From: Ruditapes philippinarum
Lineage: Eukaryota
DNA length: 64,000 nt
Assembly (NCBI RefSeq): GCF_026571515.1
Contig: NW_026854407.1
Coordinates: 124,001 to 188,000, forward strand
Reading direction: 5' to 3'
Shown: one piece after another, positions 11,955-64,000 of the stretch
Layout of the letters: each line of letters starts with the position of its first letter
Numbering within the stretch: the first letter of the stretch is position 1
Made by a program: the position numbers and the translations under genes
The notes under the pieces: model-generated
What the model saw: only the letters and a program-made list of their open reading frames with translations
What the model was told of the DNA's origin: nothing
The model's database searches: none

Positions 11955-12060
11955 TTGTGAACAGTAGCTTTTTCAGTACTGTCAATGAACAGATTATTCA
12001 AACCGAGCTTTTCAATTTTGCCGTTTTGGACGTTCTTTAGCAATTCTCTTTCTCTCTATT
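11955..12060 (-). repeat. Multi-hairpin element copy 4 (truncated)
   Basis: cagtactgtcaatgaacag...aaccgagcttttcaattttgccgttttggacgttctttag...tctctat. Confidence 0.75.
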
Positions 12061-15975: not shown

Positions 15976-16858
15976 ATAATTGTAATATTTGATAATTTGC
16001 ATTAATTTTGTAATATGAATTATTGATAGAAATAATTATAAATCCAAACCAATAACTATTAATAAATACAGTGTTCAAATTTGCAACACAAAGCTTCTTT
16101 TACCTATTTGAAAATGATTCACATTCAAATATACTTTAATTAGCTTTTTTCTTTTAATTCAAATTGATTCTGTTTTACAACAATTCGGAATACGAATCGA
16201 AAACATCTGTTAAGCAGTTGTTTGATTTTTATTTGTTCATCCATCAATGCACATGGCATGTTAATTTACACAACGTGTTGCAATGCCAAACAATATCTTG
16301 ATTATTTAAATAAACATAAGGGCAGCTTTATCGTCCTGATATTTTTCATTTTCTTTCATGTTGTGAAAACATCCAACAAGTTAAATATGTACAATGGTAC
16401 CGTGTTACTCCTGAAAACCGTACACATGTTGAACAAGCCAACAAGTTTGGATTATGAAAGTTTCCGGTATTCTGATGTTCGGAATTGTCTGAATCAGTAG
16501 GAACATCAGTTTTTTTAGACATAATAAAATATTTTATATCCTTTTCAATATCCGACTTTTGGAAGTACAATTTAACAGATATTATCGTTCCGAGTTTATA
16601 ATTTAGAAGTTCCGAAATTCATAAGTATGAATAAAATAGAAAACAGAAATCATGAAAACCGATCAAGTGTAACATTGAGCAAAGTAAGCAAATTAAAGAA
16701 CCGATTGAGTTTGACACATTAAGGTATGACCCCCCCCCCGTACTAATGGGCACTGTAAGGAACTGTAAAATTGATAGTAAACCTTAAAGAACACCTGTAT
16801 ACAAACTTTCAAAAAATACATTTGATTTAGAGTTATTGAGATTTTATTTAATATAAAT

Positions 16859-17178
16859 ATAGAAAAGCTGAATCCCTAAAGAAAACCCAACACGGCAAAA
16901 TTGTTCATGGACGGTTTTAGATGGAAAACACAAGTTACTGTCCATGCCCCTAGCACCAGCTTAAGTAGAACTCAACATTTAACGCAAAAATGGTGACATT
17001 TTGAATTTAGAAACATCCGCAGATGTGTCCATACGGCGGTTATCACGGAACCTTCAATGTGTCTCGGTAGTGCCATTCCATGAAAAGCGGCGTATGGTCC
17101 TCAAGTAAAAGAATGCGTGTGCCCTAAACGAGAAAACAATGGACAGAACGTAAATAACATGGAATTTTGAAAGGGGAT
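16859..17178 (+). repeat. Multi-hairpin element copy 5 (hairpin 1 deleted; reaches the distal end aggggat)
   Basis: Colinear with the reverse complement of 61634-61982 up to the shared terminus gaattttgaaaggggat. Confidence 0.9.
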
Positions 17179-19385
17179 ATGGGCCCTTTAAAACTTGACT
17201 ATTAGAAAGGCTCTTTTTTCAGAAATGAGAAACTCTAAATAATCTTTTATATCATCATTTGAAATTAATTTTCCTATTGTATATTGTTAAGAAACAAATC
17301 ACACAAGCAAAATTATTGTTTCTACTCAAAATTTTTGAAATATGTATAAAAATGTTACGCTACCCCACCCATCATTTTCCTCCTTAGAAGGCCTTATTAA
17401 AATGTTCCTAAAATTTAACAAAATGAGGAGCTGTTTTCAAAGTTTGCCTAATTTTATTGTAAAGTATATTGGTTGATCCTTTCAAATATAAAATACTTTT
17501 ACCGTGTAGCTTTTATTTTTATGAGACTTTATTTAGACAATAAATCTAATACCATTGATACATGTAATGTTTTTTTAAAAGAAAACATCAGTAATCGAAA
17601 CAAAGACCAAAGTCTAACTTTAATCCTATATTTAAAGATCTAAAAAATGTATAGTTCTTATCTTTAATCTTTTTAATCAGTTTATCATTAAGGCAGACAA
17701 CAATGGCATTTGAAATGCAAAGTGATAATCAATATTTCAGTAAATTACGTTTGAAGTTGAGTCATTTCGTTAGAAGAGGCAATATGCTTGAGAACTATCA
17801 GGATTCTAAATACACAAAACATGTTGCTTACAATGTTGTATCAATTGTAAAATACAATAAATTATAGACATTATAATGGATACGAAAATAATATTACAAT
17901 GAGTAAATGACATGTTATAATTTGTATGTTTATACCAATTGGCCCTTCCTGCGACAATTTGACGTATAAACGTTTGATCTCTATTTCTGTACTTAAACGG
18001 AAAACAAGTGGAATAAGTGGAATGAAATAACATGTATTTTCTCTTCAGTTCACTTCATGACACATCCCATAACAAATTGTCACGTTCATGCTATTCACCT
18101 GTTAATCATGTATCACTTATAGAATCAGAATAAAAACTATGGTGTTTTGAAAAACGGCAATCTGGGTTAGAAGAATTGCTTCACAGATCCATTTATATGG
18201 TAAATCTTTTAAAATTTCAAGCACAAGATGTTAACTTTTATAACTTTTATAACTTTTACAATATTATGCTTCCTTTGAAACTAAAGCCTCATTGTCGGTT
18301 TGACAGTCAAACAGTTTCTGACGCGCTTTTTCAATTATCACATGTTAAAGTGATGATACAAATCCTTTAACTTTGATAATTATGTAGGTCTTTTTTGTTT
18401 TTCTTTTAGTCTGATTGATTTAACTAAATGCAAATACAAGTTTCAGTAATGATATGTCATAAACAGGTAATAAGCCAAAGTAAAGAGAACCGTTGTCCAA
18501 GCCTATATAGCGTTGTGGTTTACATTGAACGCCGACTTTCCTTGTTGATCTTTTTTATCAAAATTTACATCGAATTTATAATGTCTCGAGTTTTTGTATT
18601 TATTTATTTGTTTTATGAGACTTATTCCAAACATCGAATAACTTTTCATTTGTGCATGTTGTCGCTGCGTCATTTTACTGACCATTCCAAAAAGGTTTGT
18701 TTCTTTCTCTGTGAATGAACTTAAAGAATCATAAAGCAGCGTGACGCATCTGCCAATATCAGAGTTGAGAGAAAAGTTGAAGTCTCGTTACAAATTTTTC
18801 AGTTTTTACATTTTATCCTTAACATTTGTCACTATCGCATACTAGGCGTTAAATATCATAAAATTCAATCTTTTGAAATTATTTAGCTCAAATCGATCAT
18901 AATGTTGAAACTTACAGCTAAATGCACAGTTATTTGGACTCACAATTAACACTGAGATGGACATTGTGCTTCTACGATAAGTAAACACACTTTATTTTGT
19001 CATTGAAAACAGAATATTTGAAACACATGTAGAACACTGTAAAGGAGTTGTATGGATAAAATGATATAAAACATAAATACGTATTATTGTGAAATACTGC
19101 TTTCAATGCTTTTTCTAACAATGTAACAATGTGTATCATTTATTAATCTTAACATTTATTAATTTATCAGTAAAGTTTATTTATATCATATCACGAAACT
19201 TTATGTACCAAGATAATCAAGTTCTCATTATTTCCTAAGAATTGTATGAACGCTTTACTGCCCTTTTGATATGTTTGTAATGATAAAACTGGTTAAATTA
19301 TGGTTATATTAACATCATTTTATATATAAACCTACGATTAAGATAATTATACTTACAATTCAATTAGAAAAGCTAAAGATATTAT

Positions 19386-19579: not shown

Positions 19580-22230
19580 CACAAATGTTTGTTAAATGTT
19601 GTTAAAATAATCAACATGTTGCTAATGTGTACAAAACATTCTACACGTTCTACCCTCTTATTTGCACATTTTCAGTAAAGTTAATATTTGTCTCGATTTC
19701 GGCAAGGTACATTTAGAAGAAATGTAATGATTGCATTTATATTTTGTGTATGAATTTGTTATATAAGCTCTTTTTGCTAATGACATGACAGTGTTTTACA
19801 CTTAAGCAAGAAATAATAATAAAAATTAACATGAACTTGATTTGAAAAAAAATCGTTTTAAAAGGGTAATCAGCTTTTGTTTCATTATTGTCCGTTGATC
19901 CAATCTTTTTCTATTAGAAATTGCTTTTAACAAATAGATTTTTATAAGGCATGCTTTATAGTATTCTATCAAGGCTAGATTAACCTTGATACACACCTGT
20001 TGCTATTATGTATTGCAAATGTAACATAAATATTCACATCTTACTCTTAGAACTACTAATTCAAACAAAGCATAAACAAGTATGTCCTTCTTGTGACAGT
20101 TTAATTATTATTAATCAGAAACAAGCCATTTTATAATTTCCAAAATCAATTTAGCGATATCAGTTTTGTAATTTTCTGTCAACATACCTTCATAATCCCC
20201 GCGTTAGTTTTGTTTTGAATAAATAAAAAGTAATAAACACAAATCTTTTCCTATTAATAACATATCATTTATATTGACCAATCGTTGTTTTCCCAAAATT
20301 AACTAGATACGTTTATGTAACAATCATATGCATACGGTGCAAGCAAAATATAATCATCTTTCATGTTTCGATGTCATATTTGTGTTGGCTTGCCGTAAAA
20401 CCAAACATAACAAACAAACCAAAGGTAACTTTAAATAGAATTATTTCCACAAGCAAATTTGCCATTTTATATCATAAGATAACAAAAACATAGATACAGC
20501 AAAAGTTATTTTAATTTATATGTCTACATAACAATTTACGCCTGTCTTAAAATCAGAAAAATCCTTAATATTTACACTAGAGTAGCTATAATAATCATTA
20601 AAGTGTATCTTATTTATTATGATATATTATAATGTTCAGCTGTTAAATGTTTTTTTTAATGTTAAACCATATCAAAATATTAGCATCTATCTTATATAAG
20701 CATCAAATGCTTTGTAAAAAGTAGAGCAAAATAAAATCCTTTAGTATTTTACACTATATTTTATAGAAATGTTGCATTGACACCATTACTAACCGATAAA
20801 TGAAATAAAAACGGTAATGATTAACTACAATGTGTATACCGCAATTTCTTTTTTACTGTCAAGTAATGATAAATTATGTCAATTTGAACTCTTTCGAAAT
20901 TGGGTAATTTTAGAAATATGTTTATCATCATAACTATTTAAATGCAAAGTGTTTCTATCTAACCGTGAACGATTTCAGTAAATGTTATGTTTAAATATTT
21001 GTGAATATAATTAAATCAACATAAAGTGATTTAGAACATTTAATTTTATGACCATATGTTTGATAAATACAAGAACCTATATCAAAAGAAAATGACGTCG
21101 GTACTTTTCTTTCACTATTGTAATTTGTTTTAAATGTCTCAACTCCCTATGTGACAAGTACACGAACAGGCTCAATCAAACCTAGCCTGCAACATTTTCA
21201 ATTTTGCCGTGTTGGGCTTTCTTTAGGGATTCTGTTTTTCTCTATTTTATATGACAGACATAATTCGACACATATAAATAGAGAAAATGAAAATTGTGGA
21301 ATAAAAAAGAAATCAAACTTGCAGACAATTATTTTATAACCAAATTAAATCGTAAGAAATAGCCAGCCTTGCTTCCGAAAAGATACGTTTGGATTACTTT
21401 ATTCTTTTTCACAAAAAAAACAAAACAAAACAAATTCAAATAGTATAACTATTTAAATACCTACTTAAAAGGATGATATATCTGATTTACAATTACAATA
21501 AAAAAAACATTTCATGTCCGCAACTGAAGACAGACTTTCGGTCTATCAAACGAATGAAATATTTACAATTGTTCACGTCTTTTATCATATAAATCGGATT
21601 ATTTTCAAGTACCTATACTGATATTTTGGTTAGGAGAAAGAGAATTATAGATGTATGTTTTATCCAATTAACTAAGAGTAGACTGTGTATTTTAGACATT
21701 AAGGTTTACTTAGAAGTAGCTAATGTAAATGTACTATAAATGTGTTATTATTAATGCTGTTTTTGTAACCGAAATAACACGCGTGTTGTGCCTAAATATA
21801 AGGTACAGGTAAAACGTTTAGCACAATACTGTTTCATTTAATTTTTTGCTGCCTGCAACAACATTATTGGATCGGTTGTTTCAGTACACAAAACTTATGT
21901 AGTTAATTGAAAACAACACATTACCATCACACTAACCATTTGGTTGAAGTGTTGGCCATAAATTCTGGAAAATGAGGTGAAAAAATCTTCCTGTGGTACA
22001 TTTACACGTAAAGAACCATCTATTGCATTTTATACAAGGAATATTTGTTTTAATTTTAAACGCGAGACAACGAGTATCTCTTCGAATTTACTGCAGCGTT
22101 AATTTCTTTCAAGAGAGACATAATATGGCACTACAAAAGCAGCTAAACAGCATCCTGACGCCGCAAATAAACTTAAACCGTATTTATATGTATGTTTCCT
22201 TTATAAAATACGTGACATGAAATTATAATA
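19580..22230 (+). repeat. Old, deleted paralog of the 37.4-42.1 kb duplicated block
   Basis: Colinear anchors: gtgacagtttaattattattaatcagaaacaagcc (20093) vs 39061; aaattgggtaatttt (20897) vs 39583; tgaagtgttggccataaattctggaaaatg (21945) vs 42004 and 63600. Confidence 0.65.
21161..21245 (-). repeat. Multi-hairpin element copy 6 (terminal part and hairpin 1 only)
   Basis: gaacaggctcaatcaaacctagcctgcaacattttcaattttgccgtgttgggctttctttagggattctgtttttctctat. Confidence 0.9.
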
Positions 22231-25269: not shown

Positions 25270-27200
25270 TTATTCACCGCAATATAAGGACACCATTTAT
25301 AAACGTTTCTAAATTCAATGATGAGTTCCGCTTAAGTCGAGGAACTGAGTTTAATTCAAATATAAAATTATATTTTATAAAGCTTATTAAACGACGTCCG
25401 TTTGTTATCATTTAAAATAGATTATTGGCATTTGCATATAAACTTAAAATGATTGTTCAGAGGGTCAATACACTGTATCATTATTATTATCTCATCTTGT
25501 TATGTAATCATTGATTCAACAGTTTAAAGTTATCCGTATTCGTTTTATCCATCGTTATGGCATTGACAATTCAATTTAGACAGTCATATAGTTTACAAAT
25601 GCATTTTGCTATGTTTAGCACTCTAGGTAAAATTAATACACACTAAAATGCGAGTTGATATTGCAAATTTGCAATTACGTCATCCCCCATCATACAGTTT
25701 GAAAATAAATTAAGTTAAGCGGGAATGGCTTGACAACAAGGTTGATCATACGATAACTGCCGTTTGTAATTAAACGTTGTGTTTTTGGTTAATTTGGTCG
25801 TGTTGCAATTTCAGCCTACCTGAATCAGGTATGCGTTGAATATCAAATGGGAATTTGGACAGATGAAAAAACTATGTGACTTAATATAAAATCAGCACGT
25901 GAAACAAATGTTAAAACATTGCTGATAGAAACAGGGGTATTTGTTTGCCGGAATTATCTTCACGTGCCAAGTGTTAAATGTGCTTGTACTATGTGTAAGT
26001 ACCTAAACAAAAACAACACCAGAATAGAATATGTTTCGCCAATCATCTTCAGAGTTAAAATGTGAGCTATATCCAAGCATTTCGCTGAACTCCCTGAACT
26101 TAAATTATCAAACGATCCATCTAAAACAAGATGTCTAAGGCGATATAAGAAAATAATGTGTTTAGAATCCTTTTTAATGATTATGGAATTTAAAATAAGT
26201 ATGTAAATGTTAGTTATGTAAACAAATAAACATTTTTTCCAGGTATTGTATAATTTGGCGTGTTCGTGTAATATTGAAAACAAAGCCAGTTAAGTTCTCA
26301 AACAGGTGTGCCCCTGATGACCTCGTCGGGAAAAAACGTCTCCATGTAACATACGTACTGAAAAAGAATGTATGCACTTGGCTATTTTGAGATTCTGTAT
26401 ACATACAAGGGCAAAGAAGTGACAAATGTTGTAACAAATTTTGCAGAAATGTTTTGACCAGACAATGACTTTATTTGTATTTATTTTTTAATGATTAGAA
26501 GTTTGGGTACGTGTAAATAGCGGTGGGTTGGATTTTGTGTAATTTTGTCATATCGTTATTAAAAGAAACATATTTGACATTTTGTAAGCGCATGATAATT
26601 TTCCGTGATCTCTCGAAAGCCCCAAATACAGCAAATCACATAAGAATTGCATATTCGGTTTGATTGAGTCTGTACATAAGGAATTATAGATAAGTGCAAC
26701 ATCCCCCACGCACTAAGCGGTATAAAAGTTTTAACTCTTAAAAGTACCTACCATTTCAATAAACTTAAAACATTTTTTACAATCCTATAAAAGAAAACCA
26801 CGGCATTTATATAACATAGAGTTTTTATATCATGATTAAATTGTCATAATGCACTGTTAAACGCTAAGTAGAAAGGACAAGTGCTAACTTTAACGGGTGA
26901 TTCAGAATAGGTGGTTCCACGGTTATTTGTGAAATCATCTTAACCAACCCGCTATGTAAAAACACAAACCCCCGGTACACCTTCTTTTAGAAAAATTAAA
27001 ACGCTACATAGTAACTGATCATTATCATTTTAGCTTTGATCTCACTTAATTCATATGGCAGATATCGTTTAAATTGTTAGAAATTTGATTTTTTAGAAAT
27101 ATAATGTTTTTTATTATAGAGATCATTTAAAAATAATATTAACGAAATTTCAAATTATTATAATTACTATTACATCAGTAAATATGGGAAAGCAATGTCC
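25270..27200 (+). repeat. Segmental duplication block E/F (paralogs at ~28480-30100 and ~51230-53900)
   Basis: Shared anchors: acgtcatccccc..gtttgaaaataa (25677/51838); acgataactgccgtttgt (25750/28540); aaagaatgtatgcacttggctattttga (26362/29400); catcagtaaatatgggaaag (27173/53858). Confidence 0.75.
26612..26725 (+). repeat. Multi-hairpin element copy 7 (diverged variant)
   Basis: ttgcatattcggtttgattgagtctgtacat...aagtgcaa; closest to the inverted copies at 35305-35390 and 58058-58125. Confidence 0.6.
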
Positions 27201-32640: not shown

Positions 32641-33924
32641 AAACTTAAACTTCTTTGCATAGAGTTTTTTTTTATTCCAAAAATCTTTAATAGTTTTAGA
32701 AAAATTGTTTTAAAAATTCAAAAAAGTACATTTTTAAAGGAAAAGCCTGAAATCTCAATCCCAGGTGATGTTTCCCAATAAATAAAAAATTTTACAGTTA
32801 AACGAAAAAAGATGTATCAAATGCTATCTAAGCTTATCTATTTAGGATAAATGTAGACGTATCTGTATTATAAGCCCAATCTTTTAAGAGCTAATTCAAT
32901 TATTACTTAGTAATTCACATTTCGTAATTTAAAGAGAACAATAATAAAACGATCTTGCTTCCAGCAAATGAAGCTGATATACACATAAAAATCTAGCTTT
33001 GATGTCTCATAACACATATATCATTTGTAAGCCTTACTAAGATAACAAAGAAAGCATCAACAAATTTTAGATCGTTTTGTTTATTTTCTCTCTCTGATAT
33101 CGTGATGTGATTATGTTCTTCTTTTTTATGAACCATGCAGTTTCTTCGGTATGTTTAATAGTACTAGGTTCAGAATAACAAATAAAAACAAGTCGTTACA
33201 AATTAAAATACTATTTCAATTTTTGTTGAGAAGTATAAATAGTTAAAAAGGGAGCCAACTGCAAATTCTTAAAAAAAAATCCTTTAATATACCAAAGTTT
33301 ATGCCGAACAGCCTTCTTCAGGGTACATAAATTATCACATAGGCCACGACACATGAGTGTTGTAAACCAATTAATAAAAATGACATTACACTAGTGAAAT
33401 AATACTTTGACGTGACATAACAAGATTTGATAAAGTAACATTAAATAAGTATGTAAAAACATTACTTGTTACTTGTCCAAACTATTTAAAAACAATTGAT
33501 AAAGCGACGTCTATTGCATTTTGATACCCTACCTCTTACCAGTTTTAAGAACCTCGTACAGTTTAGTGAACAAAAATATCTTGTATACTCTTAGGTCTTT
33601 TATATGCAATCATAGGTTTATTGACATGTATATGTCTAACACTCGCATGCTCGGAATAAGTGTTGTTTTACTATTTTATCAAAATAAGACAATGGTTGAT
33701 TGTCAGTGTATTTAAAAGGAATGACTTTATTCATATGTTTTACAAGTTAAAAGAGCATTTTGCATGATTAAAGAAGACACCTTTCTAAATGCATCGTTTA
33801 AAGTATTTGCAGGATAATTTTACGGGTTTCAAAATATTCTTAAGAGGGTTGAAATATTTCAAGCTATTTTTTATTGTGAAAATAAAAGGGGATTAGATTA
33901 ATAAAATTAAAATGGTAACACTCT

Positions 33925-34050
33925 CAGTTTGCTGTAGCTTGTCCATGAACGGAAATGGTTAAATCACACCCAGTAGCACAATTTAGACAAGTATAATTAT
34001 GACGCGAAAATGGTGTAATTAAGAATTTTGCAGCATCCGCAGATTTGCCT
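33925..34050 (+). repeat. Multi-hairpin element copy 8 (highly degenerate)
   Basis: gtccatgaacgg...cacacccagtagcac...aattttgcagcatccgcagatt in the expected order. Confidence 0.45.
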
Positions 34051-35304
34051 TTTGGAATGTGATTAGCCACATTACTGACAAAAATATCGCAATGTAATTA
34101 ATACATAAACGACGAAACAGATGATGAAGATGAACATCGAAATGCAAATAATTTTATCCCTGATGTCAATCATGATAGCCAATTCAAAGAGTCATAAAAT
34201 ATATTCGAAAAAAAAACAACGTTTTTTTCTTACCCAAAAGAAAAAATAAAATAATGTAGGTAAATCAAACAAAAAACTAAGTGCCTTTTTGATCCTAAAC
34301 GGGAATTATTTATAAATGTTTACATTAAGTGTGGCTTAACTATAAGTTTCCAATTAATGTTTACCAGCACAAAAACAAGTGTAAAGTAACACAACCATAT
34401 AACATTTAGATAATAAGCAATTGTAATTTTCCTGAAGCTAAATTTATACCACATAATGCATGGTATGGACCACCTATTAATATATTGAATACATCGTAAA
34501 CAAATATCTTCCATAGAATGTAGGGTGTATACCCTTTGTTTTCATATGCATAATCGTAGATAATTTAGAGTGAATGATATTTGAAATTTTAATTTGAATT
34601 TCAATTGAATGTTTTAAGCAGGATGCTTCCATTATTACACTCTAACAAAAACCAACTAAAGTAATCAAATAAAGTATATAAAGCAAGTATAAGAGATATA
34701 TGGCACAAAACTAAAGGAGATAAAATACAGACAAGCTATTGATAGACTGTGTAAAGCTTCAGATAAATCATGTCTAAGGCTATATATTTTATATATCTTA
34801 AACAGATATATTAATTTTTCTGAAGTTTGATTTATAGAATATCAGCTCGCACATTTAATGCAAACATCGAAACATTGATTGAGGCTTATGTAATTCTTAT
34901 GTAATTTTGTTGTGATTAATGCTTCCTAGGGATCATTCTGTATCCAAAGTTTTATAATACACACTGCTAAGTATCTTTTCATCTATGTTTGCTTCAGGTA
35001 AAGTTCTTTTCTAAGCAAACTTTATGACCCCTGGAAGCTGGATTCTCAGAAATTGGCAAGATTTCCTTACATATTCAGTTTGTATAAAAATCACGGGTTG
35101 TTCTGAATGTTTTAACAACTGGGCATAAAAATATGGCATGAATGAAATTAGAAATATATCATCAGAACTGCTGCATGATTTTACTAAGAATTAATGTTTT
35201 TTGTTGTTTTTTTTCCATTGTGGTATACAACTTACAATCTAGAAGTTAACATAAGCTCGCTGTTAGAATATTGTCTAAGAATACTCCTTTGAACATCACA
35301 TATT

Positions 35305-35390
35305 AACTTCCTAATGTACAGACTTAATCGAACCATATCTGCAATTTTAATGTGAATTTGTTGTGATTAATGCTTCCGAAGGATCACCCT
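35305..35390 (-). repeat. Multi-hairpin element copy 9 (diverged variant; paralog at 58058-58125)
   Basis: atgtacagacttaatcgaaccatatctgcaattttaatgtgaatttgttgtg is an inverted homolog of 26612-26700. Confidence 0.55.
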
Positions 35391-35669
35391 TTCTCCAGAA
35401 ATTTCACTGACATTTGAAATTTAACGTCAAACGAAATAGGGAAAAGAGATTAACAGGGAAAAGAGATTAACAAAGACATAAATGAAATAACGATTCTTTT
35501 TATCTTTTTATAAGAACTTTTCGTTTACATTTGAAATTACAGCATTTTTTTTTCTTATTCCATGATATTGATTTAGGATTTTCAATAAATGAAAATGCTT
35601 GCTGGGATAAACACTCAGTCTAGCTTAGTAATAAAATGTTTCTTTGATGATATGTAATAGTTATAGTAT

Positions 35670-38454: not shown

Positions 38455-41400
38455 ATAACTCGTGATGTTTTAGTGATTTTCAATCTTAATTGTTTATAAT
38501 TGTGCAAAACATATTTACCAAATGAAGGAAAATTATAAAACAACACTCTTTTTCTTGGGGTTCCTTTCAATTTTATAATGACATTTGGAATGATGTTATT
38601 TGTTTAAATCATTATTAATTGATTAACTTTTAAATGTATCTAAGCATCACAACTGAATGACTGGCCTGACCATAGGCAAAACTTCACGACTATTATCCTT
38701 TTTGCTGCTTAAATGATTTTGTAATCGTGATAATTGCTTTTTCTAGAAAAATTATTCAGTGTTATATATGCTTTGCAACTTAAGATCAAAGCACCGAAAC
38801 AAGAACAAACAAAAAGTGTATTAATTTAAACTTAATTGCAATTCTTATGTTTAAAATAATAATCTTTATTTTTTAATTCTTTCGATCGATATAACTTCCG
38901 TATTAAATGTCAAAGTAAATATTGATGCTAAGGCGATACGATGTGTAGCATGTTAATGTAAAGACAAACGTGTTTATATAAAATAATAAATTCTGACATA
39001 AAACATGTCTTAATTTAAACTGTGTTGATTACTTACATATAACATAACAGTATGAAGCATGTGACAATTGAACTGTTATTCATCAGAAACAAGCCCTTTG
39101 ATTATTATCTAAATAATTGTTTCTATATCATTTTGTTATAATTGTCAACATCGCCCGCTCGATCCTTTATTTTTGTCAGTTTGATTTAAACAAAAACCTA
39201 CTGACTTAAGCACTTTTATTTTGACAAGTTCAATATATAAATATAAGATCGTTTTAAAGATCATTTATGTTCTATCTTGAAAATAGTAGATACTTTTATA
39301 TGAAATATTGTATTTCCATATGCATACGATATATCTTGTTATAATGTTCAGCCGGTTGATGCCTGTTTGATGGTTGTTTTATTTTGTGATCTTTTGTTGT
39401 TTTTATTTATAATTATATAATTATATGTAAGAACCTAATCTTTTAATAGGTTGAGGGAATAACATTTCTTAACTAAAAAATAACCGTTAAATGGAATTAA
39501 AACTGCAATGATACATTAAAAGTTCGAAACCACAACTTGGTATTTACTATAAAGTAATGAACTGTCAATTTAAAGACATAAGAAACTGGGTAAATTTGTC
39601 TGTTAAGTGAAGTTTTTAGATGCAAAGGTATTCTTACCTTGAACGATATGAGAAAATGTTGTTTATTTACATTCCTTAGTGCATGATAAAATCGGCGTTA
39701 AAAGGTTCAACAAATCTTAAGAGTATGTGTGATTTATACAAGTACTTTTATTTAAAAACGATTACAAATACATTCATGTCAATGTTTAAAGAAATATCAT
39801 GTTTTTATTTGACGTTATTTGTGTACCATCAGGTTTCGGTCGGAGTCAATTACTTGTGTGTGCAAATTGTCAGACTATTCCCTCATCCCGTTTTACCAGA
39901 TTCTTCATTTTTATTGTGCAAAAAAGGCCTAAAAATGAAAAGCGTTGCAACTCAAATTAGCCTAATAATCATACAAAATCTATTTTCAATCTAATTTTGA
40001 GCATATTTTGTTCAGTTTCTCTGCAAATTGTCCATTTCAAGTGCTTCTTTTTATCTATTTAAATGTTAGATGCTTTGTTTTCAGCCTTTCTGACCTCAGT
40101 TGGGCTAAGCTGAGTTAGCTTACATGATTCAACTCACAGTATGAAAAGTAAGATTTTACATTAAAAAACAACAACATTATTTGATACATATAGATTAATT
40201 TCAAAAATTATGAAGGAAATAATGAATCGAACTTTCAGAAATCATATTATATTGTAATATAAATCGTAAAAAAAACGTCTTTCCTTACTTTCTCACAGGC
40301 ATTATTTTTATTTTATGATGTGCATTTGATCAAAAAGAATTATAATGTAATGGAAGATGAGAATCAGAATTTAAAAGTTAAACTAATCAAAGACATGCTA
40401 TATGGGATCGTGTAACTGATTTACATTTGAAAGATTTATGTGTTACAATACAGACATTTCATTTCCGCATTTGAAGCCAGAACTCGGTCTATGATTGGAC
40501 ATACATCAAACGAATAAAATAATTTATAATTGTGAACCTCTTTTATCACATAAATCTGATTATTTTCAAGGCAACAAGAGGTATTTATGTGAATATGTGG
40601 CAAGTGTTTTTGTTTGTACTGACATTCACGTTTATCTGTGACTCTGTATAATTTGACAGGTTTAATTAATGTGTATACCTAAATGTTAACCTGATCGTTC
40701 CAGAATTTTTATTGCGAAACATAGTGAAAATCGTGATATTTTACAATATTTACTTAATGATGCTTTCAAGTCATAAACGCTTGGAATATTTCACATCAAA
40801 TATTTACTACTTTGTTGCGCATATAGAAATTTTACACTATTCTAAAGTTAACTTTTTAAAGACTACCTAGACTTGTTTTTGAAATGAAAAATTGAAAATT
40901 AAAGTAATATCCATGCAACAGTAGAGCCACGGAATTAAAAATACAACAAAAAAAACTAGTAAACACATTTGAACTAAGTGAATGAATGACATCTGTACCA
41001 ATTTTGTTCGAATTAGGGTCCCCTTGGTTAAAATTTACCTCGCCAATGAGGGACTTAAAAAATCCCATTTTTCATATTTTCAGTCTCATAGTGTTAACCT
41101 CTAGTGAACACCAGGGTCAAATTGGCCCAATCTTTTGGGATCAATAGGTCAGATATTTAGGATACAAATCTCATATTCTGGCGGATGATAATTTGTCCAG
41201 CGTTACTAATAAGACATGTCGATCTCAAAGGTCAAGTTTTCAAACCATCATAACTTATCATGTTTAGTCATGGCCATCATATGAAAATGGAACTGATATT
41301 TACTTTCAAATGACATGGATAATACAAACCTAAAGGATGCAAAAGACTTATATATGATGTTTTGTTTGACATGCTGAAATATTTACCTTAGGCTCCGCTT

Positions 41401-43735: not shown

Positions 43736-46700
43736 ATAACTCGTGATGTTTTAGTGATTTTCAATCTTAAATGTTTATAATTGTGCAAAACATATTTGGC
43801 AAATGAAGGAAAACTATAAAACAACACTCTTTTTCTTGGGGTTTCTTCCAATTTTATAATGACATTTGGAATGATGTTATTGTTTAAATCATTATTAATT
43901 GATTAACTTTTAAATGCATCTAAGCATCACAACTGAATGACTGGCCTTACCATAGGCAAAACTTCAAGACTATTATCCTTTTTCCTGCTTAAATGATTTT
44001 GTAATCGTGATAATTGCTTTTTCTAGAAAAATCATTCAGTGTTATATATGCTTTGCAACTTACGATCAAAGCACCGAAACAAGAACAAACAAAAAGTATA
44101 TTTAACTTAATTGCAATTTTTATATATACAATAATAATCTTTATTTTTTAATTCTTTCGATCGATATAACTTCCGTATTAAATGTCAAAGTATTATTCTC
44201 TAAATAAATTGTTCTATATCATTTTGTTATAATTGTCAACATCGCCCGTTTGTCAGTTTGATTTAAACAAAAACCTACTGACTTAAGCACTTTATTTTAA
44301 GAAGTTCAATATATAAATATAAGATCGTTTTATAGATCATTTATGTTCTATCTTGAAAATAGTAGATAGTTTTATATGAAATATTGTATTTCCATATGCA
44401 TACGATATATCTTGTTATAATTTTCATCCGGTTGATGCCTGTTTGATGGTTGTTTTATTTTGTGGTCTCTTGTTATATATCTCTCTCTATATATATAGGT
44501 TCAGGGAATAACATTTCTAAACTAAAAAATAACCGTTAAATGGAATTACAACTTCAATGATACATTAAAAGTTAGATACCACAACTTGGTATTTACTATA
44601 AAGTAATGAACTGTCAATTTAAAGACATAAAAAACTGGGTAAATTTGTCTGTTAAGTGAAGTATTTAGATGCAAAGGTATTCCATCTTACCTTGAACGAT
44701 ATGAGAAAATGTTGTTTATTTACATTCCTTAGTACATGATAAAATCGGCGTTAAAAGGTTAATAAAATCGTAAGAGTATGTGTGATTTATACAAGTACTT
44801 TTATTTAAAAACGATTACAAATACATTCATGTCAATGTTTAAAGAAATATCATGTTTTTATTTGACGTTATTTGTGTACCATTTGATGTCGGTCGGAATC
44901 AATTATTTGTGTGTGCAAATTGTCAGACTATTCCCTCATCCCGTTTTACCAGATTCTTCATTTCTATTGTTCGAAAAGGCCTAATAATGAAAAGCGTTGC
45001 AACTCAAATTAGCCTAAAAATCATACAAAAATCTATTTTCAATCTAATTTTGAGCATATTTTGTTCAGTTTCGCTGCAAAATTTCCATTTCAAGTGCTTC
45101 TTTTTATCTATTTAAATGTAAGATGTTTTGTTTTCAGCCATTCTGACCTCAGTTGAGCTTACATGATTCAACTCATAGTATGAAAAGTAAGATTTTACAT
45201 TAAAAAACAACAATAATATTTGATACATATAGATTAATGTCAAAAATTATGAAGGAAATAATGAATCGAACTTTCAGAAATCATTAAATCATTAAATTGT
45301 AATATAATATAATAAATCGTAAAAAAACCCGTCTTTTCTTACTTTCTCAAAGTCATTATTTTTATTTTATGATGTGCATTTGATCAAAAAGAATTGTAAT
45401 GTAATGGAAGGTGAGAATCAGAATTTAACAGTTAAACTAATCAAAGACCTGCTATATGGGATCATGTAACTGATTTACATTTGAAAGATTTATGTGTTAC
45501 AATACAGACATTTCATTTCCGCATGTGAAGCCAGAAACTCGGTCTATGATCGGACATACATCAAACGAATAAAACAATTTACAGCTGTGAACGTCTTTAA
45601 TCACATAAATCTGATTATTTTCAAGGCAACAAGAGGTATTTATGTGAATATGTGGCAAGTGTTTTTGTTTTTACTGACATTCACGTTTATCTGTGACTCT
45701 GTATAATTTGACAGGTTTAATCAATGTGTATACCTAAATGTTAACCTGATCGTTTCAGAATTTTTATTGCGAAACATAGTGAAAATCGTGATATTTTACA
45801 ATATTTACTTAATAATAATGCTTTATAGTCATAAACATTTGGAATATTTCACAAATATTTACTAATTTGTTGCGCATATAGAAATGTTACACTATTCTTA
45901 AGTTTAACTTTTTAAAGACTACCTCGACTTGTTTGTGAAATGAAAAATTGAAAATTAAAGTAAAATCCAGTAGAGCCACGGAATGAAAAATACGACAAAA
46001 AGGAAACTAGTAAACACATTTGAACTAAGTGAATGAATGACATCTGTACCAATTTTGTTCGAATTATGGTCCCCTTGGTTAAAATTTACCTCGCCAATGG
46101 AGGACTTCAAAAATCCCATTTTTCATATTTTCAGTCTCATAGTGTTAACCTCTAGTGAACACCAGGGTCAAATTGGCCCAATGTTTTGGGATCAATAGGT
46201 CAGATATTGAAGATACAAATCTCATATTCTGGCGGATGATAATTTTTGTCCAGCGTTACTAATTTGACATGTCGATCTCAAAGGTCAAGTTCTCAAACCA
46301 TCATAACTTATCATGTTTAGTTATGGCCATCATATGAAAAAGGAACTGATGTTTATTTTCAATTGACATGGATAATACAAACCTAAAGGATGCAAAGGAT
46401 ATATAATGTTTTGTTTGACATGCTGAAATATTTACCTTAGGCTCCGCTTGACATTCATCATAGGCAAGTAGAATCACATAAATAAACTTCTGTTCTTGCT
46501 TTTATTTATGGCTTTTCAATTCGTTGGCATGTTTACACAAATATCCATATTTCTCTCTCACAGAACAAGCAAAACAAAGGGCTGAAATACTTTAATCATT
46601 GGAAGCTTCAAAATAGGAACAATTTAAAAACTGACATTCGTTAAAATTTGTTCTGTATCACTTTTATTATTCTACTTAATTTCATACTCTATGTGAGGTT

Positions 46701-54576: not shown

Positions 54577-55029
54577 ATGCAAAATTAAGGTTTGTTTAAA
54601 CTCAATGAAACACAAATTATTGTTGTAAAAATTGAAAATGCTCCAGGTTCGTTTCGATTGTATTTATTCGTGGATGGTAGTGGTTATTGCATGTTCGATA
54701 GCATTGCCTGAAGCTAAACATAGTACATATTGAAATATTGAATGAAGAAATATCAAAACCAGTTAACAAAGGGCAATGAAAATTCTTTTCTATATCGACC
54801 ATAATATATTGTTGTTAGTTAATGAAACAGTAAATGTTATAAGTATTATATGTTTAGTCGAAGCACGATAGAAAATCTCGTGATTTTTGAACAAATACAA
54901 GTAAAATACAGATGTATATACGATGTGAACATCAAAAGGAACTTTAATGACCAGCTCACTTGGAACAAGACACAATACATTTATATGGCTGACCATGTGC
55001 ATTCCCTCAAATTTAATAAATGGGTTTAA
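54577..55029 (+). pseudogene. Possible decayed OTU-like cysteine protease reading frame
   Basis: FVDGSGYCMFDSIA (Cys codon 54688-54690) resembles the OTU motif GDGxCLFxSIA. Downstream ENLVIFEQ...YIYMADHVHSL resembles the His loop. Interrupted by stops and frameshifts. Confidence 0.35.
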
Positions 55030-56540: not shown

Positions 56541-59500
56541 AATCTAAGTAAGATAGCAATTTACGAAGTTTTTAAAATCAAAGAGTTGTAAAATATATTT
56601 AAGAAAAACGTTTTTCCTTTCCGAAAGTAATAAAATCAAATCTGTAAACCAAACGAAAAAATAGTTTAAGTGCAAGTGTCTTTTGGATCCTAAAGATGAA
56701 TCGTTTTTAGTTTTTTAACATTTTGTTTTACTCAACTTTAAAATATGCAGATAAGATTTGAAATGAATGTTTACCAGCACACAAACAAATGTAAAGTAAT
56801 ACAACCATATTACATTTAAAAGCGCCTTATGCCTCAGAAATCAATATTATTTTTTATTCTTTAGAAAGGTCAAATATATGTTTAATAATATTTTAACAAT
56901 GGATTAACTGCATGTTACATGTAAAACAACTTAAGAATGCAGCATTGGTAGCGCAGTAATATGTCGTAAAGGTAGCAAAATATAAACAAAGTAGTATTTT
57001 GACTTCCATAGAAAGTACTGTATCACCTTATTTATATCCATTGCCAAAGCTCAGACGAAGCAAAAGATAGTTCATCTATATTGCCAATGAGTAACATTTT
57101 TGAACTTGTATTAAGTAATAAAAAAAAATGTTTTGAGAAATAAGAATTATAGCAATTCGAGGGCTTAATGGGCCTTTAAATAATAAACAATTGAATTTTC
57201 TTCTGAAACTAAATCTATATAACATAATGCACTGTTTAGACCACCCATTAATACATTATTCATCAACAAAGTACCTTCCAAAGAATGCAGGATTTATACC
57301 ATTTATCTTAATGTGCATAATCTAGAGTAAATGATATTTGAAAAATCAAAATTTTATTCGAATTTAATGCAGTAAGTTTTAAAGCAGGATGTTTCCATAA
57401 TTGCGAAAAAGAACAAAAGACAACTGATACCAAGTAGTATAAACAAATACAGTATGTAAAGCAAGCACAAGACACTTGTGAACTATGGCAAGAAACTAAA
57501 GGAGATAAAATCCAGACAAGCTATTGATAGACGATGTGAAGGTTGAAATGAATCCTGTCTAAGGCTATAGGTTTTAGATATTCTAAAAAGATAATATTAT
57601 ATTATTTTATCTGAAGTTTGATTTATAGAATATCAGCTCGCAAAACATCGAAACATTAAGTGGAGCTTACAGTCCATACTGCTTAAAATCTTGTCATCTA
57701 TGTTTGCTTCAGGTTCTTTTCCAGGCGAAATATAAAACCTCTAGGAGGTTGATTCTCAGTATTTGTCAAGAATTTCTTACATTTTTAGTTTGTATAAAAA
57801 TCACGGGTTGTTCTGAATATTTTGAAAACTGGGCATGAAAATATAACATGAATGAACATAAAATGAAAGCCTAAAAATATATCATCAAAATTCAACTGCT
57901 GCGTGAAAAGACTAAATAAAATATGTAAACAGAATTAAGACACTAATGTTTATTTTTCTTTTTGGTACAACTTTTAAAAAAGAATATATTAGTTAACCTA
58001 AGCTTGCTCCTAGAATATTGTCTTAGAATATGTCTTTGAACATAACAGATGACCTTTCTCATCAAACCGAATCTGCAATTTTAATGTAAATTTGTTGTGA
58101 TAAATGCTTCCGAGGGACCACCTTTTCTCCAAAATATTCATAGACATTTGGTATTTGACGTCATACGAAATCTTACTGTGAAACAAGGTAAAGAGATTAA
58201 AAATACATAAATGAAATAAGGACTGCTTTTATCTTTTATAAAAACTTTTCCTTGACATTTGAGGTAACATAATTTCGTTTTGTTCTTCTTATTCCATAAT
58301 ATTGATTCGGGAATTTCAATCTATATAAATGTTTGCTGGGATACACACTCAGTCTAGCTTGAATCACCGTTTTTGTAATAAAAGATTCCCTTAAATGTTT
58401 CTTTGATGATGTGTAACTTTTATTGGCAAACGAAAGCACTGTAACATGAAGTAGTCAAACATATTGCAGGTCACATTTCGATAATACTTCCATGAAAGTT
58501 CAATCATTATTCTATTTACACTCAAATATGGTAAAAATTCGTGGCATTTAAACAACTCCGTTTCCGGAAAATAATCAGTTACTTTCGAGGAAGACGTTCC
58601 GGTCTGTACAGCCAGAGTATATATCATTCTCTCTGTTCATTCTCTCTGTATGTTGTTTTGGTTACTAAAACACGTGTTTACTTCGCCAAATCATTATTAA
58701 TTTAGTTATACCCCTTTACATGCACATTCGCCCCTGTTTCAACAGGATACAGTTTGAAGGATTTTACTGACCGTATTGATATTAAGTATGTTAAAACGTC
58801 TTAATATTTGACATTTTTATGTCAATTTTCTATGAAACTATTTCATGCCGTAACAGTATGGCTTTCGGACTATTTTAAGAATTGATCAACTATGCGGGTA
58901 ATGTTGACACCTAGGAAAATATCTTGTCATGCAATTGTAAAGCAAATTTGAAATTCATCAGATAACTTTGAAATAGTGTTTTTTAATAATAGATTTTTAT
59001 TTATCAGTAAGGTCAATATGTTTTATTACATATATATTGCTTTGTGATTGTTTAACAAAACTGTTTTAATATTTTTCTTTCAAGTTAAGGCACACATATA
59101 TGTTTAGTACATTTGCAACAACTAGTTTGCTATATTTCTTTAAATAATATTTAAGCATATGGTTCAAAGCATATATTGCCCCGCCTCGGCGTTGGTCTTT
59201 CTGTTCATGGCTCGATGGTGTCTGTTCTCTTTTTTTGTTTTTAACTCGTGATGGTTTTGTGATCTTCTACTCTTTATTGTTTACAACCACTGTGGAAAAT
59301 ATTTCGCAAAATAAGGGTAAACTATAAAAGAAGCTCTTTTTCCCCGGGTGTCCTTGCATGAGTTTTGGAATGATGTTTTTCGTTAAAATCATTATCAACT
59401 GATTAACTTTTGAATCCATTTAAACATCACAAATGAATCACCGGCTTCATGCAGCTTATTAGAATAAATGAGTTTGTAATTGTTATAATTGCTTTTTTCT

Positions 59501-61244: not shown

Positions 61245-61345
61245 ACCGTCCATGAACAGGCTCAATCAAACCGAACCTGCAACATTTTTCAATTTTGTCG
61301 TGTTGGGCTTTCTTTAGGCATGTTAGGGATTCTGTATTTCTCTAT
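61245..61345 (-). repeat. Multi-hairpin element copy 12 (truncated within hairpin 2)
   Basis: accgtccatgaacaggctcaatcaaaccgaacctgcaacatttttcaattttg...gggattctgtatttctctat. Confidence 0.9.
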
Positions 61346-61633
61346 TTAATGATCACATCCGTGTTATTTGTGCCGTGTGGCGGCTGTAAAAAGTCTCCCC
61401 GTACATTTAATCAATCATGTTATATTTTTGATCCTTGAAGATCGTTCAGCACGACATAATTGTTGTGTATACATGTTATGTGGGATTTTTGTTTCTTCTA
61501 TTTGACTTTTTCAACTTGGATGGTTCCAGTATTCCTACTTGAATACTGTATAATCACCCTTAGAATATGTTGCCTGCTTTTTAAATTTGTCTTTTGATGT
61601 CATATCTGTGATATGCAGGCTTCATAACCTCAG

Positions 61634-61982
61634 ATCCCCTTTCAAAATTCCATTTTGTTAAGTTCCACCCATTGTTTTCTCGTTTAGGGCACACGCATTT
61701 TTTCACTTAGGGACCTTATGCCGCTTTTCATAGAATGGCACTAACGTGTCATATTGAAGGTTCCATGATGACCGCCATATGAACACATCTGCGGATGTTT
61801 CAAAATTCTAAATTTTACCAGTTCATGTTAAATGTTGAATTCTGCTTAAAACGGTACTAGGGGGCGTGGACGGTAACTTGCACTTTCCAGTACCGTCCAT
61901 GAACAGGCTCAATCAAACCGAGTCTGCAACATTTTCAATTTTGTTGTGTTGGGCTTTCTTTAGTGATTCTGTATTTCTCTAT
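61634..61982 (-). repeat. Multi-hairpin element copy 13 (full length, reference copy)
   Basis: atcccctttcaaaattcc...cgtggacggta(61865-61875)/taccgtccatg(61891-61901), caggctc(61904-61910)/gagtctg(61920-61926)...tctctat. Confidence 0.92.
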
Positions 61983-64000
61983 TTTAGCAATGTATTATTT
62001 GACAGGTGTGAACAATGTGTATATCTAAATGTAATCGTGATCGCTCATATTTTTTTATTACAAAACATAGTGAAAATCGAGATATTATACTATATAAACT
62101 AACTGGTGCTTTCAAGTCATAAACGCTAGGCATATTTCACATCTTAATATTTACTTATTTTTTGCACATATAGAAAATGTAATAGAATCAATCTGCATAA
62201 TTTTTAAAAACCTTTAGACAACCTAGGCTTTTTTTTGAAATGCAAAGTTGAAAATTAAGTCATATCTATCCAAAACTGATATGTGAGGAAAAGTTGAGCT
62301 ACGGAATGCAAAATAAAGACGATAAAAAACAACCAGTAAACAATTTGCATAATGTGAATGAATGAGACCTCTACCAAGTTTGTTCGAATAATGATCCCGT
62401 AATTAAGGTAGAACTGGAAAACAAAACACAAAATAACCATTATGCAGACAAACAAGTCTCGTAGTTTTAAAAAAAAGAAATGAACTATTAGGGAACCCCA
62501 TTGGCTAAAGGATCAAAATGTAAAATTTTTTCAATGCTACCCCCCTCAAATTGGGGGAAAATTTGATTTTTTGCCCCAGTTTTTTAAATTTTCACTTGCC
62601 CCATGTAAATTTCCAAAGGAAAAGGATTTAAAAAATTTAATCAAACCTATTATGATTTTAGTTATTGTCCTTTCATATAAAAATTGGGGGCTGATTTTTT
62701 ACCCTTTTTGTATATGTTTGTTTTTTATTTCCCAAAATTGGGACAAAAGTTCACAGGAACCTTCCCCGAATTTTTAATTTTTTCCCCCAAAAATTTGTCA
62801 TTTGGTTTTTAATTTTTCAAATTTTTTTAAGAATTTCTTTTTTTAAAAAATAAAACCCAACCTTATTTTTGAAAAAGACTTTTAAAAATGTTTGTTTTTT
62901 TTTAAACTTTTTCTAAAATATGTACCTTAAGATCAATTGGGAAAATTGAGTAAAAAATAAAGAAAAAACCCTTTGGCCCCCGCTAATAGTTATTGCTATA
63001 CAATAGTTTGGCATGTTCATAAAAGTATTCTGGCTTCTCTCTCAAAGAAAACGGAGCGGGCAAAATTGATGAAATACTTTAAACATAGGAAGCTACAAAA
63101 TTTGAACAGTTTATTAACTGTCATTTGTTAAAAATTTGTTCTTGATCATATTCTTATTATTCTGTTTTCATATTCCTGCGACTGTTTAAATTTAAAGATT
63201 CAAGTGTACTTAAAACGGATATTGGTTACAAAAAGATATAACTGAGAGGACTGGCTTCGACAAAGGAAAGAAAGAAATGTTAAATAAACAAATTTTCAAA
63301 AATGAAATGCTTGAAAATTCTATACATTCATTATGTTTGTTTCTGAATTCAGTAAGTTATCAGGTCAATACAGTGCACTTCATAGCAATATTTACTTTAA
63401 ATGTTCCATTCTGTTTTGTTATAATAAATGAATGACTATTTTGTCTCTAAATATAAGAGACAGGTAAAGCAACATACTGTGTCATATTTTCTTTAAGTTA
63501 TTGATGCAAGCAACAACATTATTGACCTAGTGGTTTCCGTACGCACAACCTACATTTATAATTGAAAACAATACATTACCATCAAACCAACTATTAGGTT
63601 GAAGTGTTAGCCATAAATACTAGAAAATAAAGTGAAAATTCTTTCCGTGCTCTATGTAAAGAACGATTCATTGCATTTTTATTTCTAGCCATACTTCTTT
63701 ACGTCTTTAATGTAAGACAAGGGTTTTAGATTTCGACAGAATTTTCAATATTCTGTGATATAATACATTTAGATCCATTAAAAGTAACTCTTTCTGTCCG
63801 TTTTGGTCATTATTTATTAAAAGACAATCGTTTTTGTAAGAAGAGTCACGAATAACAACTTTTTACTTTGTCTAAGTCAAACTAAAAATCAATATTCATT
63901 ATGAAAATCAGAAAACGCAATGGTTTGAAAATGACATTCTCTACTCTGCTTCAATTCATTGAAATTGTACTTGACTTATAATTTATTGCCACTTATTTTT

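What the first reader, a model, noticed from the sequence alone, without database searches (positions are those of the whole stretch)
61634..61982. Unclassified ~350-bp four-hairpin element, ~13 copies on both strands across the window
Seen: copies at ~1487(+), 4088(+), 8738(+), 11955(-), 16859(+), 21161(-), 26612(+), 33925(+), 35305(-), 36167(-), 58058(-), 61245(-) and 61634(-). Consensus order is ATAGAGAAA.ACAGAATCCC terminus; HP1 CAGGCTC-N9-GAGCCTG; HP2 ATGGACGGTA-N15-TACCGTCCAC; CTCF-like motif; AT-rich linker; HP3 ACATC-CGCA-GATGT; HP4 CATACG..TCATGGAA-N25-TTCCATGA..CGTATG; distal end AGGGGAT. It has no tRNA head, poly-A tail, clear TIR or TSD, so it is not an ordinary SINE or MITE. The ATAGAG end is kept in most copies while the other end is variably truncated. 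Whole hairpins drop out as modules (HP1 in copy 5, HP3-4 in copy 1). Inference: an arrayed structured ncRNA family, or the terminus of an unclassified non-autonomous (rolling-circle or tyrosine-recombinase) element concentrated at this locus.
Basis: partly seen in the sequence, partly recalled or inferred. Interest (0 to 1): 0.75.

Follow-up and report, generated by a model that had tools for sequence, protein, structure and literature searches.

The report
Non-coding passenger of Naiad retrotransposons
The repeat is the 3' half of a 637-base, protein-free element that sits head-to-tail or as shortened fragments at an estimated thousands of places in this animal genome, and it is likely copied by Naiad (Penelope-like) retrotransposons, because its first 63 bases are about 80% identical to the start of a published clam Naiad.

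Summary
Reads laid on the locus show a 637-bp unit (61350-61986, +), an estimated thousands of copies genome-wide, and at least 1,682 reads joining tail to head. At this locus a 5'-truncated copy plus a full unit is missing from two paralogous sites, without target duplication. A relative from another host carries an inverted, head-to-head truncated copy. These are Penelope-like-element (PLE) signatures. The first 63 nt match the 5' end of the autonomous clam element Naiad_Scon at 51 of 63 positions without gaps (counted by eye; E about 1e-8 or better), and the tail-head junction matches too. No hammerhead, Helitron termini, tRNA, Rfam match or discrete transcript was found. Local hairpins are conserved between two hosts, with a few compensatory changes. 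Verdict: most likely a non-autonomous, hammerhead-free element mobilised by a Naiad PLE (0.8). The partner in this genome was not found, and Repbase and Dfam could not be searched.

The parts
61350..61986 (+). Full 637-bp unit (copy c13); non-coding
   Evidence: Depth high over 61351-61986 in all four runs; joint 61986 to 61351/61353; no Pfam match in the overlapping frame
61245..61349 (+). 5'-truncated copy (c12) directly upstream: pseudo-LTR of a partial tandem
   Evidence: 94.7% identical to c13 over 95 aligned nt, the highest of 13 fragments compared; absent, together with c13, from both paralogous sites
61350..61423 (+). Head homologous to the 5' end of Naiad_Scon; inferred recognition signal downstream of the reverse-transcription start
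   Evidence: 51/63 identical over 61350-61412 and 58/74 to 61423, ungapped, counted by eye against File S5 of PMC8557442
61412..61462 (+).
   Evidence: Local z -2.3 (+) and -2.9 (-); majority letters of reads at 61416, 61429, 61458 restore pairing
61431..61462 (-). Degenerate inverted copy of the unit's own tail
   Evidence: 72% complementary over 32 nt to the c12 tail; best 16-mer 13/16, reached by 5 of 300 shuffles
61715..61781 (+). HP4 with an inner hairpin (61736-61751) and a conserved unpaired stretch
   Evidence: Pairs kept in both hosts; 2 of 6 inner pairs changed on both sides
61785..61798 (+). HP3, kept only within this host
61835..61849 (+). Small extra hairpin
   Evidence: 78% of cells paired; weakest helix
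61866..61900 (+). HP2
   Evidence: 3 of 10 pairs changed on both sides; the sister family has another stem around a similar loop (loose ends)
61897..61929 (+). Most conserved core: HP1 (61904-61926) with AC-rich loop
   Evidence: Nearly identical in L001-L005 and shared with the sister family
61977..61986 (+). Fixed 3' terminus
   Evidence: Depth falls from about 22,000 to under 7 within 30-50 nt in X21; same end in L001, L003, L005
36162..36487 (+). 5'-truncated copy c10
   Evidence: 84% over 324 nt
16855..17183 (-). 5'-truncated copy c5, HP1 deleted
   Evidence: 84% over 327 nt
4084..4398 (-). 5'-truncated copy c2
   Evidence: 79% over 315 nt
8741..9010 (-). 5'-truncated copy c3
   Evidence: 77% over 269 nt
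1484..1686 (-). 5'-truncated copy c1, HP3-4 deleted internally
   Evidence: 73% over 202 nt
11940..12063 (+). 5'-truncated copy c4
   Evidence: 76% over 124 nt
21158..21249 (+). 5'-truncated copy c6
   Evidence: 91% over 92 nt
33900..34055 (-). Old internal fragment c8
   Evidence: 70% over 155 nt
54628..54695 (-).
   Evidence: E=3e-6
26608..26725 (-). Sister-family fragment c7
   Evidence: Flanks of the core resemble the sister-family loose ends
35302..35397 (+). Sister-family fragment c9
58058..58131 (+). Sister-family fragment c11, segmental paralogue of c9
   Evidence: Lies in 34952-35626 / 57667-58360 duplication
40630..40645 (.). Empty paralogous site A
45685..45700 (.). Empty paralogous site B

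Best explanation
The finding is the 3' half of a 637-bp protein-free element that occurs head-to-tail and as 5'-truncated fragments, shares its first 63-74 nt and its tail-head junction with the autonomous clam retrotransposon Naiad_Scon, and is likely copied by the endonuclease and reverse transcriptase of a Naiad-type Penelope-like element. Inferred cycle: a tandem locus is transcribed through the junction. The Naiad protein binds the RNA at the head of the next unit, nicks AT-rich DNA, and starts reverse transcription inside the RNA at the junction. Early stops give 3'-anchored fragments; runs longer than one unit give a truncated copy plus a full copy, as at 61245-61986; the 5' joint forms without target duplication. 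Because the shared signal lies beyond the start point, only tandem loci would be able to act as sources and solo fragments would be dead. Shown: unit length, tandem joints, one-sided truncation, empty sites, inverted copy in a relative, sequence match to Naiad_Scon. Inferred: the RNA intermediate, the partner enzyme in this genome, the role of the head and of the hairpins.
For: (a) Head 51/63 identical, ungapped, to the first bases of Naiad_Scon; the last 12 nt before the junction match its 3' end at 10/12 (by eye; E 2e-10 to 2e-8 over 200 kb). (b) Tail-to-head joints in 987+481+214 X21 reads, in contigs of X1 and X5, and in 3 X23 reads, with four junction variants; the single locus would give about 3. 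(c) Truncated plus full copy absent from two paralogues, no duplication seen; same layout as Pen2_Av (PMC3846280) and as described for Naiads (PMC8557442). (d) 9 of 9 main-family copies keep the same end; breakpoints at the other end are scattered. (e) In L002/L003 (one locus, two assemblies) the last 42 nt recur inverted, head-to-head with a truncated copy (83% to the L001 tail, E=1e-6). (f) No hammerhead core, as in Naiads. (g) In the anole PLE, reverse transcription starts inside the RNA at +111 to +118 and needs RNA to +172 (PMC11167929), which fits a signal lying past the fixed end.
Against: No autonomous partner was found in this genome: none is held and 0 of 136 frames from the window and loci match a transposon domain. 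The Naiad_Scon match was counted by eye on one consensus whose boundary could be wrong; Naiad_Mmer, read in full, shows no such head. The hairpin body has no exact 10-12-mer counterpart at the ends of the published consensi (line breaks can hide matches). The 30-40 nt PLE 'tail' was not demonstrated. The inverted copy was seen at 1 of 4 independent loci of the relatives and at none of the window copies. Folding does not fix the strand: G-U pairs favour + in some helices and - in others. The empty sites are only about 72% identical to the filled site, so a duplication of up to about 6 bp could be hidden.
Confidence: 0.8

Rival explanations
1. The short copies are the 3' ends of an uncatalogued autonomous Naiad, and the 637-bp unit is an internal-deletion derivative of it. 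This keeps the same enzyme and is not exclusive with the best explanation.
For: Craig et al. report that abundant Naiad 3' ends are usually annotated as unknown. Depth rises toward the 3' end, and loose ends show other sequences joining upstream of 61575 and 61603. A 13-nt stretch at 61897 resembles the start-codon region of Naiad_Scon (12/13 in c13, 13/13 in c1; by eye).
Against: The 5' third of the unit itself has about 3,900 times the flank depth, so the short unit amplified on its own. The 3' UTRs of Naiad_Scon and Naiad_Mmer do not show these hairpins (by eye).
Confidence: 0.25
2. A non-autonomous rolling-circle element (Helitron2/HINE type) copied as single-stranded DNA by a RepHel transposase; hairpins are DNA signals and tandems come from rolling circles.
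For: No TSD; tandem joints; the end resembles the ATTTT end of FoHeli1/2, which have a hairpin 38-51 bp upstream; a degenerate inverted repeat links 61431-61462 with the tail.
Against: Longest inverted match between the first 40 and last 100 nt is 5 nt, against 11-18 nt TIRs for HLE2; the internal arm lies 80 nt from the head; no TC start or CTRR end; inverted head-to-head copy and the Naiad match are unexplained.
Confidence: 0.06
3. A SINE-like retroposon copied by a LINE, with secondary tandem amplification as satellite DNA.
For: Fixed 3' end with 5' truncation; the 5' third is far rarer in RNA than in DNA, as expected for silent arrays.
Against: No tRNA or 5S head, no simple-repeat tail, no TSD; the head matches a PLE.
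Confidence: 0.05
4. A dispersed and arrayed family of structured non-coding RNA genes, the truncated copies being pseudogenes.
For: Hairpins kept between two hosts (89.6% of cells paired, 8 of 46 pairs changed on both sides). X21 is labelled RNA-Seq and 155,435 of 12.9 million of its reads hit the unit.
Against: X21 behaves as proximity-ligated DNA (loose ends and opposite-strand joints at GATC, equal strands, even 3-fold cover of the intergenic flank). X23 holds 1,237 of 7.4 million reads, both strands, no pile-up of ends, with a profile that follows DNA depth (rho 0.71 and 0.85). Small RNAs would be lost in these libraries, so this is not a full exclusion.
Confidence: 0.04

Closest known systems
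Naiad Penelope-like elements, above all Naiad_Scon of the razor clam (Craig et al. 2021, PMC8557442)
   Same: 5' end and tail-head junction sequence; 5' truncation; partial tandems; inverted head-to-head copy (in a relative); no canonical hammerhead; very high copy number
   Different: 637 bp against 3.4-4.4 kb; no ORF; hairpin-rich body not found in the published consensi; no SECIS seen
Non-autonomous Chlamys elements such as MRC1 of Chlamydomonas (same paper)
   Same: Protein-free, pseudo-LTRs, multicopy head-to-tail insertions, no hammerhead
   Different: Those resemble their partners at the 3' end; here the long match is the 5' head just past the junction; animal host
Animal non-LTR retrozymes (PMC7229834; bioRxiv 10.64898/2026.07.22.740005)
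   Same: Short tandem non-autonomous units tied to PLEs
   Different: No type I hammerhead; longer than the 350-390 bp mussel units; no sign of an abundant discrete RNA
Helitron2/Helentron derivatives (FoHeli, HINE, DINE-1; PMC5148889, PMC4067079, PMC11417382)
   Same: No TSD, subterminal hairpins, T-rich end
   Different: No terminal inverted repeat; continuous 5' truncation; PLE sequence match

Membership tests
Non-autonomous Penelope-like element (Naiad-dependent) | Partial tandem: full unit preceded by a 5'-truncated copy (pseudo-LTR) | tested here: met
   c12+c13 against two empty sites; at least 1,682 junction reads
Non-autonomous Penelope-like element (Naiad-dependent) | Frequent 5' truncation with a fixed 3' end | tested here: met
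   9 of 9 main-family copies keep the same end
Non-autonomous Penelope-like element (Naiad-dependent) | Terminal sequence shared with an autonomous PLE | tested here: met
   51/63 to the 5' end and 10/12 to the 3' end of Naiad_Scon, by eye; partner is from a published clam genome, not from this one
Non-autonomous Penelope-like element (Naiad-dependent) | Inverted 5'-truncated copy next to the 5' end | tested here: met
   1 of 4 independent loci of relatives (L002/L003); 0 of the window copies
Non-autonomous Penelope-like element (Naiad-dependent) | Optional 30-40 nt tail extension | tested here: inconclusive
   c12 and c13 end at the same place; L001, L003b and L004 share a short extension past the end, not shown to be a tail
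Non-autonomous Penelope-like element (Naiad-dependent) | Autonomous RT/GIY-YIG partner with the same termini in the same genome | not testable with these tools
   No genome held
Autonomous Naiad | ORF with N-terminal GIY-YIG endonuclease and RT, 3.4-4.4 kb | tested here: not met
   No long frame; no Pfam match
Non-LTR retrozyme | Type I hammerhead ribozyme in each unit | tested here: not met
   No core motif on either strand of 61245-61986; no Rfam match. Tested on this copy, not on a family consensus
Non-LTR retrozyme | Abundant monomer-length linear or circular RNA | tested here: inconclusive
   One RNA-like run, low and unstranded; circular RNA could be missed
Helitron1 (HLE1) | 5' TC; 3' hairpin plus CTRR | tested here: not met
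   Read from the sequence; definition
Helitron2/Helentron (HLE2, HINE) | 11-18 nt inverted repeats with one arm at the terminus | tested here: not met
   5 nt longest; degenerate internal repeat is 80 nt from the head
tRNA- or 5S-derived SINE; TRIM (Helenus, Ajax) | Pol III RNA-derived head; TSD or LTR pair | tested here: not met
   definition from the abstract
Catalogued repeat family (Repbase, Dfam) | Match to an existing entry | not testable with these tools

The most novel reading that the evidence does not exclude
The first short non-autonomous partner of Naiad elements in animals: a hammerhead-free counterpart of retrozymes whose recognition signal lies downstream of the reverse-transcription start, so that tandem organisation is obligatory, and whose hairpin set, conserved across hosts and across a sister family, is an undescribed RNA structure, possibly a processing element that stands in for the hammerhead.
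Probability: 0.3. Interest if true: 0.72.

Novelty: new variant of a known kind. Interest (0 to 1): 0.5.

Why it matters
Naiads dominate bivalve genomes, yet how they recognise their RNA without a hammerhead, and why PLEs insert as partial tandems, is open. A 637-nt passenger that shares under 100 nt with the autonomous element points straight at the minimal signal and offers a ready short template for an in vitro test. In practice it also classifies a repeat that makes up at least about 0.7% of this genome and that pipelines would probably leave as unknown. It is still a transposon fragment in a gene-free window, with no sign of a host function.

Tried and rejected
Rfam: nothing at gathering score in the window; only weak miRNA/snoRNA matches far below gathering at E 1.5-6.7; none in L001-L005. 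A hammerhead-like reading of 61420-61450 on the minus strand was dropped: the core is not met and the family letter at 61429 turns it into a plain hairpin. HDV-like and SECIS descriptors: no convincing hit (descriptors recalled or taken). Resemblances to 5S rRNA, pistol ribozyme and Pol III boxes were recalled, not supported by Rfam, and dropped. Pattern scans: 0 hits; the 7 viral hits are chance 17-mers in GC-rich phage DNA. A head-like stretch upstream of L003a (922 of 2000 shuffles as good) and near 26920 (below shuffled maxima) were rejected. No RNA holder was listed for 59000-64000; this is no evidence either way. No genes: six-frame self comparison and Pfam (2 sub-threshold matches in 136 frames). 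A covariance model was not built. Earlier scan findings: none by sequence or place; the 8 by words were prokaryotic repeats of no bearing.

Full report
Setting. The window is 27-37% GC per 2 kb, has no frame over 140 aa among those of 90 aa or more, no Pfam match above cut-off in its 110 longest frames, no tRNA and no Rfam match. It is rich in repeats, including multi-kilobase segmental copies at 37603-42625, 43729-47677 and 58415-63914. No whole genome is held. That the host is a bivalve is my inference from recalled repeat types and from the Naiad match below.

Observation. The repeat is real. BLAST finds 12 of the 13 listed places and two more fragments; the thirteenth appears in a profile search. 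Ten shuffled windows give no hit better than E=2.1. Nine copies belong to the main family; all keep the same end, and their other ends fall at unit positions from 61350 to 61895. Three listed copies (26612, 35305, 58058) belong to a sister family. Reads show it as 12,454 and 12,421 loose ends on either side of 61898-61929 in X21, with 88-89% agreement. The 356-nt stretch as a whole folds no better than shuffles, while HP2+HP1 does (z -3.2 in c13, -5.5 in c10 on +).

True extent. I laid four of the 24 listed runs on 61351-62250 at 80% likeness. Depth is high from the first bin to 61986 and then falls by three to four orders of magnitude in X21, X1 and X5. So the 280 bp between the last two listed copies belong to the element. 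Joints from 61984-61986 back to 61351-61353 occur in 987, 481 and 214 reads of X21, in contigs of X1 and X5, and in 3 reads of X23 (15 of 1,357 joints were shown). The unit is therefore 61350-61986, 637 bp, and is often head-to-tail. X21 is labelled RNA-Seq, but I infer it is proximity-ligated DNA: loose ends and an opposite-strand joint sit at GATC sites, both strands are equal, 76% of laid reads run on into unrelated sequence, and the intergenic flank is covered about 3-fold. Taken as DNA, it gives 2,200 to 12,500 times flank depth by bin and 0.69% of bases. This is rough: restriction-site bias, few flank reads, and diverged copies left out. X23 behaves as RNA: 1,237 of 7.4 million reads, a share 80-fold lower, both strands, no pile-up of ends, and a profile that follows DNA depth. 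That fits passive transcription of scattered fragments; small or circular RNA could have been missed.

Insertion. The two paralogues at about 40638 and 45693 lack 61245-61986. The insert is a 105-nt 5'-truncated copy followed directly by a full unit, with no duplication visible at about 72% flank identity. The truncated copy is 94.7% identical to the full one over 95 nt, the closest of 13 fragments, which fits one event. For eight insertions the longest word shared by both flanks was 4-5 nt against a background mean of 4.7.

Relatives. A degenerate 21-mer found five metagenome contigs of 33-37% GC, which I take to be animal DNA; L002 and L003 are the same locus. One copy is 72% identical to 61605-61953 over 360 nt. 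L001, L003 and L005 end at the same terminus; L004 is looser. On an 11-row alignment (10 distinct) with a structure I drew from c13, 89.6% of cells pair and 8 of 46 pairs change on both sides, above the shuffles (0/500 and 3/500) and the slid controls. This rests on essentially two lineages, and some double changes, such as columns 207/234 and 37/101, can be CpG decay on both strands; changes at 205/236 and 57/72 cannot. HP3 and the CTCF-like motif are not kept in the second host. RNAalifold does not settle the strand. In L002/L003 the last 42 nt recur inverted about 30 nt from the truncated 5' end of a copy.

Identity. Craig et al. 2021 (PMC8557442; passages; section 7) describe Naiad PLEs as 5'-truncated, arranged in partial tandems, often with an inverted truncated copy at the 5' end, lacking canonical hammerheads, and dominant in bivalves; they also describe non-autonomous Chlamys elements with head-to-tail insertions. 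Pen2_Av (PMC3846280; passages) is a truncated plus full tandem without TSD. In their supplement (searched; parts 1 and 23 of 59 read) the hairpin motifs gave no meaningful hit. But the first line of Naiad_Scon aligns without gaps to the head: 51 of 63 identical over 61350-61412, 58 of 74 to 61423, counted by eye. The binomial expectation over 200 kb and both strands is 2e-10 to 2e-8. The last 12 nt before the junction match the 3' end of Naiad_Scon at 10 of 12, with a one-base offset at the join. Of the supplement's sequences, only Naiad_Scon holds both head 9-mers together. A 13-nt stretch at 61897 also resembles its start-codon region; chance is not excluded, and I treat it as a lead.

Mechanism. 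In the anole PLE (PMC11167929; parts 1-2 of 4 read) the protein cuts AT-rich DNA, starts reverse transcription inside the RNA at +111 to +118 in an AC-rich stem-loop, needs RNA up to +172, and does not need hammerhead cleavage. By analogy, the head shared with Naiad_Scon is likely the signal that lies just past the start point in a read-through transcript. This would explain why tandem loci persist and why most copies are 3'-anchored fragments. These steps are inferred. What the hairpins do is not shown; their retention across hosts suggests selection on source copies for RNA folding, protein binding or promoter function.

Rivals. Helitron2-type elements end in ATTTT with a hairpin upstream (PMC5148889; passages), but need short terminal inverted repeats (PMC4067079, PMC11417382; passages), and the longest here is 5 nt. 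A degenerate inverted copy of the tail at 61431-61462 is the best point for that reading, but it is 80 nt from the head and may equally be a relic PLE inversion. Retrozymes need a type I hammerhead (PMC7229834, passages; bioRxiv 10.64898/2026.07.22.740005, part 1 of 5, supplements closed); none is present in this copy. TRIMs need LTRs and TSDs (PMC10886601, abstract). It remains open whether the short copies also derive from an uncatalogued autonomous Naiad with the same 3' region.

Novelty. Searches of the held library listed no description of a non-autonomous Naiad or of this family; I saw most results only as listings, and PMC10294476 as passages. Repbase, Dfam and most subscription journals were out of reach, so an entry may exist. 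Non-autonomous PLE derivatives are a known kind; a hammerhead-free one tied to Naiad by its head would be a new variant. Interest 0.5.

Noticed in passing
window 9729-11730: CGTC microsatellite followed by about 10.7 copies of a 165-bp unit; layout recalls bivalve HINE/Helentron elements (label recalled, not tested).
   Followed up: no
window 2841-3077: 237-bp self-inverted repeat, 86%; looks like a MITE.
   Followed up: no
window 37603-42625, 43729-47677, 58415-63914; also 34181-35626 / 56575-58360 and 25304-27295 / 51443-54007 / 29010-30093: Multi-kilobase non-coding segmental copies at 65-95% identity with no gene found.
   Followed up: partly
window 31635-32497 and 42687-43314: Tandem arrays of 21 bp (41 copies) and 156 bp (3.3 copies).
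   Followed up: no
window 26608-26725, 35302-35397, 58058-58131; loose ends at 61898 and 61929: Abundant sister family that keeps the HP1 core and a similar HP2 loop but has a different HP2 stem and tail. Its full length is unknown.
   Followed up: partly
run X21: Labelled RNA-Seq but behaves as GATC proximity-ligation DNA; would give a false signal of very high expression.
   Followed up: yes
window 61897-61909: 13-nt resemblance to the start-codon region of Naiad_Scon (by eye); the frame from this ATG is open to the element's end in several copies.
   Followed up: partly
L001:1399-1415, L003:3318-3334, L004; L003:2829-2840 and L005:1000-1010: Copies in the relatives share short extensions past the fixed end, in two groups; possibly the PLE tail or a target preference.
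   Followed up: no
window 21302-21781, 22527-22799, 27559-27977, 40331-40585, 45385-45640, 60835-61193: Another dispersed 250-480 bp repeat family, one copy ending close to the flagged insertion site.
   Followed up: no
window 12483-12647: Three weak, differently oriented pieces of the unit close together; perhaps an old rearranged copy.
   Followed up: no
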